In this document: positions 2,184-2,213 of the stretch, piece after piece | Numbering within the stretch: the first letter of the stretch is position 1 | How the letters are laid out: every line of letters begins with the position of its first letter | DNA from: Escherichia phage 121Q | Direction: 5' to 3' (one strand) | Sequence record: NC_025447.1 | DNA length: 64,000 nucleotides | Translations under genes and position numbers: made by a program | Notes under the pieces: generated by a model | The model's input: only the letters and a program-made list of their open reading frames with translations | Database searches by the model: none | Told to the model about the DNA's origin: nothing

Positions 2184-2213
2184 GTGGGACAAAAAACCAA
2201 TAACTGATATAAT
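2184..2213 (+). promoter_or_regulatory. putative early promoter, motif GTGGGACA-N13-TGATATAAT
   Basis: Extended -10 TGaTATAAT at 2205-2213; same motif and spacing at 21197-21226. Confidence 0.4.

What the first reader, a model, noticed from the sequence alone, without database searches (positions are those of the whole stretch)
2184..2213. Recurring promoter motif GTGGGACA-N13-TGATATAAT
The same box pair with identical 13-nt spacing occurs at 2184-2213 (after the CCA gene) and 21197-21226 (after the VWA gene terminator), each upstream of a plus-strand operon. A related TGTGATATAAT extended -10 recurs at 5804-5814, 18146-18156 and 42207-42217. The GTGGGACA element departs from TTGACA and may mark a distinct temporal class or a phage-specific factor binding site.
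Basis: seen in the sequence. Interest (0 to 1): 0.45.

Follow-up and report, generated by a model that had tools for sequence, protein, structure and literature searches.

The report
Phage middle-type promoter class (TGGGACA box)
The two sites are real members of a family of about 30-40 promoters in this giant E. coli phage, which pair a perfect "extended -10" with a phage-specific TGGGACA box in place of the usual -35 and sit in front of DNA-metabolism genes and the late sigma factor gene; related giant phages are already predicted to have the same promoter type.

Summary
Observation confirmed. GTGGGACA-N13-TGATATAAT is exact at 2184-2213 and 21197-21226, and these are the only two GTGGGACA in the window.

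The window comes from an Asteriusvirus jumbo coliphage (99.6% identical to G17/Sharanji). In a near-identical complete genome, 20 of 95 TGNTATAAT sites carry a TGRRA box at exactly this spacing, against 0.56 expected. A matrix scan finds 39 sites, all on the + strand and 30 of them intergenic.

These sites precede genes for gp32, RNase H, topoisomerase II, a Dda-like helicase, NUDIX/glutaredoxin, thymidylate synthase and the gp55-like late sigma. A separate early class (TTGACA/TTGCAA, no TGn) clusters elsewhere, and a T4-like late motif (ATAAATA) also exists.

Site 1 is the positional orthologue of published promoter Porf_193 of phage CBB, class TGAAACG-N13-TGnTATAAT. The box differs between phage genera (TGGGACA, TGGAACG, TGAAACG, TGAACA), while the early -35 stays TTGACA. 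That argues for a phage-encoded reader.

Rivals are host sigma-70 plus an unknown activator, or sigma-70 alone.

Novelty: a new member of a predicted, untested class. Interest is moderate.

The parts
2184..2213 (+). Class promoter 1: box TGGGACA (2185-2191), 13-nt spacer, extended -10 TGATATAAT (2205-2213). The start site is predicted, not mapped, at about 2219-2221.
   Evidence: matrix score 30.7; GGGACA-16-TATAAT, 10 of 12 matches, with TG. Box and -10 are conserved across 9 relatives. Positional orthologue of CBB Porf_193.
2255..3468 (+). Operon served by promoter 1: NUDIX hydrolase (2255-2687, read across a +1 frame change at about 2312-2320), glutaredoxin (2689-2937) and two small ORFs (2928-3179, 3211-3468).
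   Evidence: Pfam NUDIX 7.5e-14, Glutaredoxin 2.1e-8.
3479..3498 (+). Intrinsic terminator that closes operon 1.
   Evidence: Annotated in G17 at the corresponding position. The hairpin GGACTCTG..CAGAGTCC followed by a T-run is visible.
21162..21187 (+). Intrinsic terminator after the VWA-domain gene, immediately upstream of promoter 2.
   Evidence: 11-bp stem followed by a T-run. Present in all orthologues.
21197..21226 (+). Class promoter 2: box TGGGACA (21198-21204), 13-nt spacer, extended -10 TGATATAAT (21218-21226). The start site is predicted at about 21232-21234.
   Evidence: (score 30.3). Footprint alignment A1.
21261..23691 (+). Operon served by promoter 2: an 81-aa ORF, ORFs of 218 aa and 197 aa, and thymidylate synthase (22762-23691).
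   Evidence: Thymidylat_synt 7.7e-102. Annotated as thymidylate synthase in JNE01 and UE-S1.
42188..42216 (+). Variant class member: GTAGACA-N13-TGATATAAT, upstream of the ClpA/ClpB-like ATPase gene (42236-44545).
   Evidence: score 26.4, box score 5.3; AAA_2, ClpB_D2-small.
18035..18157 (+). Two tandem promoters with a canonical TTGACA in the same register plus an extended -10 (18035-18063 TGATACAAT; 18129-18157 TGATATAAT), upstream of an AAA ATPase gene (18327-19652). These are hybrids, not box-class members.
   Evidence: box scores 3.2 and 1.9.
5804..5814 (+). TGTGATATAAT extended -10 with no upstream box. The -35 position is occupied by the 3' arm of a terminator hairpin. It precedes ORF 5842-6111 and the dNMP kinase gene.
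   Evidence: Total matrix score is below 12.

Best explanation
The two sites belong to a family of about 30-40 promoters in this phage. The consensus is an A-rich tract, then TG(G/A)GACAa, then 13 nt, then gTG(A/C)TATAATg.

The box occupies the -35 position, with GGGACA 16 bp upstream of TATAAT. Host RNA polymerase core transcribes from these sites. They switch on the pre-replicative or "middle" gene set: nucleotide metabolism, the replisome, Clp proteins, and the gp55-like late sigma with its probable gp33-like partner.

The extended -10 provides the basic promoter strength. The TGGGACA box is read by a phage-encoded specificity factor. The most likely reader is the phage's own RpoD-like sigma (regions 2, 3 and 4), which is made from an operon headed by canonical early promoters.

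This would give a cascade: host sigma-70 drives early genes, the phage RpoD-like sigma drives the TGGGACA class, and the gp55-like sigma drives late ATAAATA promoters.

Shown: the motif, its spacing, its genomic distribution, its gene associations and its conservation.
For: Motif and spacing:
- 20 of 95 TGNTATAAT sites carry the box at exactly N13, against 0.56 expected; other spacings give 0-2.
- A matrix scan finds 39 sites, all on the + strand, 30 intergenic in a genome that is 9% intergenic.

Information content:
- Box positions 2-7 carry 0.9-1.7 bits each.
- The two positions that would be the TT of TTGACA are G or A in 31 and 37 of 39 sites, and T in only 8 and 2.

Downstream genes: gp55-like late sigma (phrog_12791, 2.7e-154), a possible regulator (weak match to transcriptional-regulator family phrog_639), gp32, 5'-3' exonuclease/RNase H, PD-(D/E)XK nuclease, Dda-like helicase, topoisomerase II, ClpP, ClpA-like ATPase, NUDIX/glutaredoxin and thymidylate synthase.

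Separate classes in the same genome:
- Early class TTGACA/TTGCAA-N16-17-TATAAT: 43 intergenic sites, 27 of them in one 25-kb bin, TGn in only 3.
- ATAAATA is the top enriched upstream 8-mer family.

Conservation: box and -10 are conserved islands in diverged orthologous intergenic regions (A1; A2).

Lineage-specific box, at orthologous site 1 unless stated:
- TGGGACA in Asteriusvirus and Salmonella phage 7t3.
- TGGAACG in Yersinia phage Yen9-03.
- TGAAACA/G in CBB and GAP32.
- TGAACG in RaK2, and (T/C)TGAAC(A/G) at about 17 orthologous promoters genome-wide in a RaK2-like phage.
- The early -35 stays TTGACA in all of them.

Phage sigma:
- It has Pfam regions r2, r3 and r4 and matches phrog_351.
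- Its gene lies in an operon headed by TTGACA promoters.
- Its predicted region-4.2 recognition helix is R-S-S-I/L-H-R-K-Y in two Asteriusvirus sigmas that are only 60% identical overall, and R-T-S-L-H-R-C-Y in 7t3. Both lineages use the TGGGACA box.
- The helix differs in RaK2-like (R-G-T-L-H-Y-K-F) and CBB (K-A-T-L-S-R-R-Y), which use other boxes.

Geometry: the 16-17 bp separation matches a two-element sigma-70-family promoter rather than a T4 MotA box.
Against:
- The -10 is a perfect host sigma-70 extended -10, and GGGACA still matches 4 of 6 of TTGACA. Host sigma-70 alone should be able to use these promoters.
- The phage sigma lacks the sigma-70 residues known to read -12 and TG: W433/W434 become S/S, Q437 becomes M, T440 becomes Y, H455 becomes Y and E458 becomes V. 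This rests on my alignment to an RpoD fragment recalled from memory.
- Region 2.4 differs between lineages (IYM against IRQ), although TATAAT is constant. That is awkward if the phage sigma reads the -10.
- The helix/box covariation rests on five related sequences. For 7t3 the box is known from a single promoter.
- Box spectra overlap between genera. The Asteriusvirus genome also has TGAAATG and TGGAACA, and GAP32-like or Hallingskeid-like contigs have TGGGACA at site 2.
- From memory: T4 early promoters also carry a conserved non-consensus -35 that unmodified sigma-70 polymerase reads. A conserved odd -35 is therefore not proof of a phage reader.
Confidence: 0.45

Rival explanations
1. Host sigma-70 reads the extended -10, and an unidentified phage activator or sigma-remodelling pair reads the TGGGACA box. 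This would work like T4 MotA/AsiA sigma appropriation at middle promoters. The phage RpoD-like sigma would then serve some other promoter set.
For: - The -10 is identical to the sigma-70 consensus, including TGn.
- The gene set and the placement before the gp55-like gene parallel T4 middle transcription.
- The lineage-specific box implies a phage-encoded reader.
- The phage sigma lacks sigma-70's -12 and TG contact residues.
- From established knowledge of T4: extended -10 promoters resist AsiA-type inhibition of region 4.
Against: - No AsiA homologue was found. phmmer with T4 AsiA against all ORFs of the genome gave no hit at E<=10. The query was validated as 100% identical to T-even AsiA, and tblastn showed only ~155-175 kb T4-like phages among the 30 listed of 1173 hits.
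- The box is TGGGACA at -35 to -29. It is not TGCTTtA centred at -30 with 12±1 bp to the -10, so the geometry is that of sigma region 4 rather than MotA.
- No other promoter class was found for the phage sigma, but that search was only a crude inspection.
- MotA homology was not tested.
Confidence: 0.22
2. These are ordinary host sigma-70 extended -10 promoters. GGGACA is just a weak -35, with GACA retained, and there is no phage factor. Any temporal difference from the early class comes only from promoter strength, or from a general shut-off of -35-dependent promoters.
For: - The generic sigma-70 scan scores both sites 10 of 12 with TG.
- An A-rich UP-like tract lies upstream.
- The four best-conserved box positions (G-A-C-A) are those shared with TTGACA.
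- Two window promoters have TTGACA in the same register with the same extended -10.
- The box in the RaK2-like phage, TTGAAC(A), is close to the sigma-70 consensus.
Against: - The two positions most conserved in sigma-70 -35 elements (TT) are replaced uniformly by G-G/A across about 30 promoters and carry 1.2-1.3 bits each. Neutral weakening would scatter the mismatches.
- The box changes in concert between phage genera whose hosts are all Enterobacterales. Their sigma-70 region 4.2 is, from general knowledge, essentially invariant, although I did not test this here.
- The canonical early -35 stays TTGACA in those same phages.
Confidence: 0.2
3. The match is a chance recurrence or a remnant of a duplicated segment, not a functional element.
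For: Only two exact copies lie in the window. The octamer alone is expected about 0.7 times in 128 kb of this base composition (my own estimate).
Against: - Spacers and flanks are unrelated.
- Enrichment at one exact spacing is about 36-fold genome-wide.
- The elements are conserved in orthologous positions across genera while the surrounding sequence diverges.
- The same class was found independently by MEME in phage CBB.
Confidence: 0.02

Closest known systems
"Promoter 1" / divergent RpoD-like promoters of Pectobacterium phage CBB, also reported for Cronobacter phage GAP32 (Buttimer et al. 2017, PMC5259590, Table S6)
   Same: - Same architecture: a 7-nt box, 13 nt, then TGnTATAAT.
- Same clade of Rak2-like jumbo myoviruses.
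- Same kind of downstream genes (DNA synthesis, gp55-like sigma).
- Window site 1 is the positional orthologue of CBB Porf_193, which lies between the CCA-enzyme and NUDIX genes.
   Different: - The box is TGGGACA/TGAGACA here, against TGAAACG/TGGAACG/TGGAATG in CBB.
- The base after TG is A or C here, and often G in CBB.
- The CBB class is a MEME prediction only. No start sites or reader are known for either phage.
E. coli sigma-70 extended -10 (TGn) promoters
   Same: TGnTATAAT is a perfect match. GGGACA lies 16 bp upstream and keeps GACA. An A-rich UP-like tract lies further upstream.
   Different: The TT of the -35 is systematically G-G/A. The box is uniform within a genome and lineage-specific between phages. 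The class is restricted to a functional subset of phage genes.
T4 middle promoters (MotA box plus sigma-70 -10; MotA/AsiA sigma appropriation)
   Same: A host-type -10, often with TGn. A phage-specific element replaces the -35. The promoters drive replication and nucleotide-metabolism genes. Functionally they are the step between early and gp55-dependent late transcription.
   Different: The box sequence and position differ: TGGGACA at -35 to -29 here, against TGCTTtA centred at -30. No AsiA homologue was detected. This phage encodes a full RpoD-like sigma, which T4 lacks.
Promoters of phage-encoded sigma factors (Salmonella phage 7-11 gp47: GTAAtg-N16-aCTA; phiEco32 gp36: tAATGTAtA; PMC8948821)
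   Same: A phage sigma-70-family protein combines with host core. In 7-11 the consensus is bipartite with a 16-bp spacer and depends on a region-4-like part of the sigma. Specificity diverges between related phages.
   Different: [quoted passage not shown] Here the -10 equals the host consensus and nothing has been tested.

Membership tests
Rak2-like jumbo phage divergent RpoD-like promoter class (CBB Promoter 1 / GAP32) | A 7-nt box of type TGrrAYr exactly 13 nt upstream of TGnTATAAT | tested here: met
   Both window sites read TGGGACA-N13-TGATATAAT. Genome-wide, 20 of 95 sites are at N13 only. The CBB list has the same layout.
Rak2-like jumbo phage divergent RpoD-like promoter class (CBB Promoter 1 / GAP32) | Located upstream of DNA-synthesis genes and of the gp55-like sigma gene | tested here: met
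   The CBB text says the same for Porf_244 and the region CBB_258-329.
Rak2-like jumbo phage divergent RpoD-like promoter class (CBB Promoter 1 / GAP32) | Positional orthology with a listed CBB promoter | tested here: met
   CBB Porf_193 (108,832-108,860) lies between CBB_192 (CCA enzyme) and CBB_193 (NUDIX). It aligns with window 2184-2213.
E. coli sigma-70 extended -10 promoter | TG at -15/-14 and a TATAAT-like -10 | tested here: met
E. coli sigma-70 extended -10 promoter | Initiation by sigma-70 holoenzyme without other factors | not testable with these tools
   Needs in vitro transcription or a reporter in uninfected cells.
T4-type middle promoter (MotA/AsiA) | MotA box (a/t)(a/t)(a/t)TGCTTtA centred at -30, 12±1 bp from the -10 | tested here: not met
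   The box is TGGGACA, and its last base lies 16 bp from TATAAT. The MotA consensus is taken from established T4 knowledge.
T4-type middle promoter (MotA/AsiA) | The phage encodes an AsiA homologue | tested here: not met
   phmmer with T4 AsiA against 1932 six-frame ORFs gave no hit at E<=10. The query was validated. This is sequence-level sensitivity only.
T4-type middle promoter (MotA/AsiA) | The phage encodes a MotA homologue | not tested
   No reliable MotA query was available, and the quota for reading annotated records was exhausted.
Phage-sigma-dependent promoter | The phage encodes a sigma-70-family protein with a region-4-like domain, and the promoter is bipartite with a spacer of about 16-17 bp | tested here: met
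   The sigma is at 332205-333167 of OR845138. Pfam r3 scores 2.2e-9. r2 and r4 both score 7.1e-5, slightly below their cut-offs. It also matches phrog_351 at 5e-60. Spacer.
Phage-sigma-dependent promoter | Holoenzyme with the phage sigma initiates specifically at the motif | not testable with these tools
   Requires biochemistry.
T4-like late promoter (TATAAATA, gp55) | TATAAATA at -10 with no -35 element | tested here: not met
   The sites have TATAAT plus a box. The ATAAATA motif is a separate enriched class.

The most novel reading that the evidence does not exclude
The TGGGACA box is the -35 element of the phage's own RpoD-like sigma factor. Rak2-like "group 2" jumbo phages would then run a three-sigma cascade on host core polymerase: host sigma-70, then the phage RpoD-like sigma, then the gp55-like sigma. 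The box and the sigma's region-4.2 recognition helix would co-evolve between genera (TGGGACA with R-S-S-L-H-R-K-Y; TGAAACG with K-A-T-L-S-R-R-Y; TGAACA with R-G-T-L-H-Y-K-F). This would be the first assignment of a promoter to these widespread jumbo-phage sigmas.
Probability: 0.4. Interest if true: 0.6.

Novelty: new member of a known kind. Interest (0 to 1): 0.42.

Why it matters
All "group 2" jumbo phages encode an RpoD-like sigma of unknown promoter specificity (PMC7824862). No paper I checked on an Asteriusvirus phage (Sharanji, fEgEco12, phAPEC6), and none I checked on RaK2 or the Erwinia Eneladusvirus phages, describes promoters.

This class provides a concrete, testable promoter set of about 30-40 sites. 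It has natural box variants in sister genera, which can be used to ask what that sigma recognises and how the early-to-middle switch works without MotA/AsiA.

In practical terms, it improves operon and timing annotation of these therapeutic-candidate coliphages. It also offers compact promoters, possibly infection-specific, for phage engineering.

If sigma-70 alone turns out to use them, the result is ordinary.

Tried and rejected
- **Duplication:** rejected, because spacers and flanks are unrelated.
- **Known RNA element:** Rfam at gathering thresholds gave no match anywhere in the window.
- **T4 AsiA-type system:** no AsiA homologue by phmmer. The query was verified.
- **Sigma relatives in IMG/VR:** the pattern scan with the sigma protein found nothing. 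The sigma evolves too fast, at 59% identity within the genus.
- **Exact TGGGACA-N13-TGATATAAT in IMG/VR:** 40 scattered hits. Only the two ~360-kb GAP32-like or Hallingskeid-like contigs had more than one, and IMG/VR seems to hold no Asteriusvirus genome. This was uninformative beyond showing that the motif is restricted to this clade.
- **Fourth promoter motif for the phage sigma:** inspection of 131 unassigned upstream regions showed nothing obvious, but my gene calls were crude.
- **CRP-like reading of TGTGA..TCACA around the -10 at 18147:** the spacing is 8 rather than 6, so I rejected it as a CRP site.
- **Site 12385-12413 (TGATATAAT inside a gene, no box):** treated as a chance hit.
- **GTGGGACA as the unit:** rejected. 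The first G is variable in orthologues.

Full report
**What the window is.** The window is 99.4-99.6% identical to Escherichia phages vB_EcoM_G17 and Sharanji, and about 99% to PBECO4, slurp01 and phAPEC6. These are ~350-kb jumbo myoviruses of the genus Asteriusvirus in the Rak2-like clade. GC content is about 35%.

**The observation.** GTGGGACA-N13-TGATATAAT is exact at 2184-2213 and 21197-21226. These are the only two exact GTGGGACA in the window on either strand. The spacers and flanks are unrelated, so the sites are independent. TGNTATAAT itself is over-represented, at 16 against 8.2 expected.

**Genome-wide test.** I assembled the complete genome of a 99.4%-identical phage (EC22.5-2, OR845138.1, 351,992 bp).
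- Of the 65 GGGACA in the genome, 12 are followed by TATAAT at 15-18 nt. All 12 are on the + strand.
- An unbiased count of hexamers 15-18 nt upstream of every TATAAT gives three enriched -35 types: TTGACA, (AC)TTGCAA and G(G/A)GACA.
- With a TGRRA box, 20 of 95 TGNTATAAT sites have it exactly 13 nt upstream (counting a 7-nt box), against 0.56 expected. Every other spacing from 6 to 23 gives 0-2.
- A position matrix built from these sites finds 39 sites. All are on the + strand, where 89% of genes lie, and 30 are intergenic in a genome that is about 9% intergenic by my crude gene calls.
- The consensus is an A-rich tract (-8 to -3 relative to the box), T-G-(G/a)-G-A-C-A-a, a variable spacer with AA in the middle, and then g-T-G-(A/C)-T-A-T-A-A-T-g.
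- The two positions that align with the TT of TTGACA are G or A in 31 and 37 of 39 sites. They carry 1.3 and 1.2 bits.
- Observed box variants: TGGGACA 7, TGAGACA 6, then TGGAACA, TTGGACA, TGGGAAA, AGGGACA and singletons.

**Other promoter classes in the same genome.**
- Canonical TTGACA/TTGCAA-N16-17-TATAAT promoters number 43 in intergenic DNA. Of these, 27 fall within one 25-kb bin and most of the rest at 275-350 kb, in front of small ORFs. They often carry an AGTAC prefix, a cAGTACTg spacer and a gttttACATc start region. Only 3 of 43 have TGn.
- ATAAATA-type 8-mers are the most enriched words upstream of genes, as with T4 late promoters.
- The genome therefore has an early-like class, a TGGGACA class and a late-like class. 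This is the three-way picture published for the relatives CBB and GAP32.

**What the class drives.** The first genes downstream include:
- the gp55-like late sigma (phrog_12791, 2.7e-154) and a 105-aa protein with a weak match to a transcriptional-regulator family;
- a 243-aa protein at the position where a clamp might be expected, with no function assigned by the family search;
- a 5'-3' exonuclease/RNase H and gp32, the latter with two tandem class promoters;
- a 351-aa protein that looks primase-like from its sequence, though it has no Pfam match and I ran no other family search on it;
- a PD-(D/E)XK nuclease, a Dda-like helicase and a topoisomerase II subunit;
- a protein that looks like a C5-methyltransferase from its sequence, not checked by any search;
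- ClpP and the ClpA-like ATPase.

In the window the class drives NUDIX with glutaredoxin, and the operon that ends in thymidylate synthase. This is the T4 "pre-replicative/middle" repertoire. In particular, the late sigma gene sits behind a class promoter, as the CBB authors reported for CBB_244. That these promoters fire at a middle time is an inference from this gene content.

**Comparative evidence, site 2.** Alignment of the intergenic region after the VWA gene used nine sequences: four other Asteriusvirus members at 78-87% identity, RaK2, and three IMG/VR contigs of 174-366 kb. It shows a terminator, then a conserved G(G/A/T)(G/A)ACA, a variable spacer and an invariant TGATATAAT/TGCTATAAT. 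The variants are GTGAGACA in UE-S1, GCGGGACA in TH47, AATGGACA in JNE01, TTGGGACA in A4 and TTTGAACA in RaK2. The three large IMG/VR contigs have TGGGACA with a spacer one base longer.

**Comparative evidence, site 1.** The CCA-NUDIX junction is conserved across the whole clade. The box reads as follows:

| Phage | Box at site 1 |
|---|---|
| Window, Ecwhy_1, TH47, A4 (Asteriusvirus) | TGGGACA |
| Salmonella phage 7t3 | TGGGACA |
| Yersinia phage fHe-Yen9-03 | TGGAACG |
| CBB | TGAAACA |
| GAP32 | TGAAACG |
| RaK2 | TGAACG |

The CBB sequence is exactly the published promoter Porf_193, TGAAACAGCTTTAAAAATTATGGTATAGT at 108,832-108,860, between CBB_192 and CBB_193. The finding is therefore the Asteriusvirus member of the class that Buttimer et al. 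called "Promoter 1" or divergent RpoD-like promoters, whose -35 is TGAAACG instead of TTGACA. They also noted the class in GAP32.

**A second complete genome.** In a RaK2-like Klebsiella phage (OU509535) the same two classes exist. Early promoters are still (agtac)TTGACA...cagtactgTATAAT and clustered at 3-48 kb. About 17 orthologues of the Asteriusvirus class promoters carry tttt(T/C)TGAAC(A/G)aaaa 16-17 nt before TATAAT, often without TG. The early -35 is thus constant between genera, while the class box has shifted in concert at many independent promoters.

**Who reads the box.** The hosts are all Enterobacterales. From general knowledge, which I did not test here, their sigma-70 region 4.2 is essentially invariant. 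A box that is uniform within a phage but differs between phages therefore points to a phage-encoded reader.

The phage encodes a sigma-70-family protein (OR845138 332205-333167). It aligns to E. coli RpoD regions 2-4 at 2.9e-15. Pfam gives r3 at 2.2e-9, with r2 and r4 slightly below their cut-offs, and it matches phrog_351 at 5e-60. Its gene starts with GTG after an AGGAG and lies in an operon headed by TTGACA-type promoters. It is probably an early product.

Orthologues are fast-evolving: 59% identity within the genus, 43% in RaK2 and 35-37% in 7t3, CBB and GAP32. In the predicted region-4.2 recognition helix:

| Sigma | Helix | Box used |
|---|---|---|
| Two Asteriusvirus sigmas, 60% identical overall | R-S-S-I/L-H-R-K-Y | TGGGACA |
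| 7t3 | R-T-S-L-H-R-C-Y | TGGGACA |
| RaK2-like | R-G-T-L-H-Y-K-F | TGAACA |
| CBB | K-A-T-L-S-R-R-Y | TGAAACG |

 The box sits where a sigma region 4 would bind, with GGGACA 16 bp from TATAAT. It does not sit where T4 MotA binds. I found no other promoter class that this sigma could serve, but one search was only a crude check. These points make the phage sigma my preferred reader.

**Against that reading.** The -10 is a perfect host extended -10. The phage sigma also lacks the sigma-70 residues that read -12 and TG, according to an alignment to an RpoD fragment I recalled from memory. Region 2.4 differs between lineages although TATAAT does not. The generic scan rates both sites as decent sigma-70 promoters, 10 of 12 matches with TG.

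Two rivals therefore remain. One is sigma-70 plus an unknown activator in the T4 MotA/AsiA style; no AsiA homologue is detectable and MotA was not tested. The other is sigma-70 alone. From memory, T4 early promoters also have a conserved non-consensus -35 read by unmodified polymerase, so an odd -35 alone proves nothing. The between-genus shift is the stronger argument.

**Class members in the window**:
- 2185-2213 and 21198-21226 are canonical members.
- 42188-42216 (GTAGACA) is a variant before the ClpA-like gene.
- 18035-18063 and 18129-18157 have TTGACA in the same register plus an extended -10, in tandem before an AAA ATPase gene.
- 5804-5814 has an extended -10 but no box.
- 12385-12413 lies inside a gene with no box and is probably chance.

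**Novelty.** The CBB paper predicts this class for CBB and notes it in GAP32. None of the other papers I read on Asteriusvirus, RaK2 or Eneladusvirus phages describes promoters. Nothing has been tested experimentally in any member of the clade, although PA5oct has RNA-seq with only TTGAC/TATAATA motifs reported. I file this as a new member of a known, predicted kind.

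Noticed in passing
window 2255-2687 (frame change at about 2312-2320): The NUDIX gene behind promoter 1 is split by one extra base. ATG 2255 opens MRYSCGIIFYRDGQILIGHTT and then stops at about 2342. The rest of the protein is in the +1 frame and is annotated as starting at ATG 2289. Skipping the C in ACA-ACA-C-GG restores a 143-aa protein that aligns end to end with the uninterrupted orthologues of CBB, GAP32, 7t3 and Yen9-03. The extra base is present in all four Asteriusvirus sequences aligned (about 82-87% identical in this region). The N-terminal 21 codons differ among them by five synonymous changes and one Ile/Val change. This is a candidate conserved +1 frameshift, or an old frameshift mutation with re-initiation at 2289.
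   Followed up: partly
whole window (30 copies, e.g. 12-19, 570-577, 3556-3563); also OR845138 and OU509535 genome-wide: The palindromic octamer CAGTACTG occurs 30 times in the window against 0.94 expected. It occurs 204 times in the Asteriusvirus genome against about 3.4 expected, and 246 times in a RaK2-like Klebsiella phage against about 3.0. AGTACT is 7.7-fold over-represented, while several GC-containing palindromes (CCATGG, AGGCCT, AGCGCT, CCCGGG) are absent. Most copies lie inside ORFs with a frame bias, at a median spacing of about 1 kb. The octamer also sits in the spacer of many early promoters. Unexplained, and the CBB paper does not mention it.
   Followed up: partly
window 2214-2232: The initial transcribed region of promoter 1, (A/T)TA(G/A)GTATCTGA, is conserved from Asteriusvirus to 7t3, Yen9-03, CBB and GAP32, but not in RaK2, although the rest of the 5' leader diverges. 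It may be a start-site context or a leader element.
   Followed up: no
window 18147-18164; L003:38219-38236 (OR845138 88219-88236): TGTGATATAATGTTCACA: an inverted TGTGA/TCACA pair brackets the -10 in two otherwise different promoters. The spacing is 8 rather than 6, so it is not a canonical CRP site.
   Followed up: no
L008:32205-33167 (phage RpoD-like sigma) and L008:33205-33233: The sigma gene evolves much faster than its surroundings. It is 59% identical in protein between Asteriusvirus members whose DNA is about 87% identical in the CCA-NUDIX region compared. A class promoter (TGGGATG-N13-TGATATAAT) follows the sigma gene directly, with about 0.9 kb before the next ATG-started ORF called on that strand. 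The RaK2-like phage has the same arrangement. No tRNA lies there.
   Followed up: partly
L007:62-90 and L007:138-166 (OR845138 250062 and 250138): Two class promoters in tandem, 76 bp apart, precede the gp32 single-strand-binding protein gene. The RaK2-like phage also has two (261370 and 261450).
   Followed up: no
L002:9900-22200 (OR845138, minus strand): A repeated upstream cassette, ttaaatATAGTATAATGAATAAAGGAGG..ATGTTACCTTT, precedes at least seven minus-strand genes that share an N-terminal MLPF motif. These are probably paralogous fibre genes.
   Followed up: no
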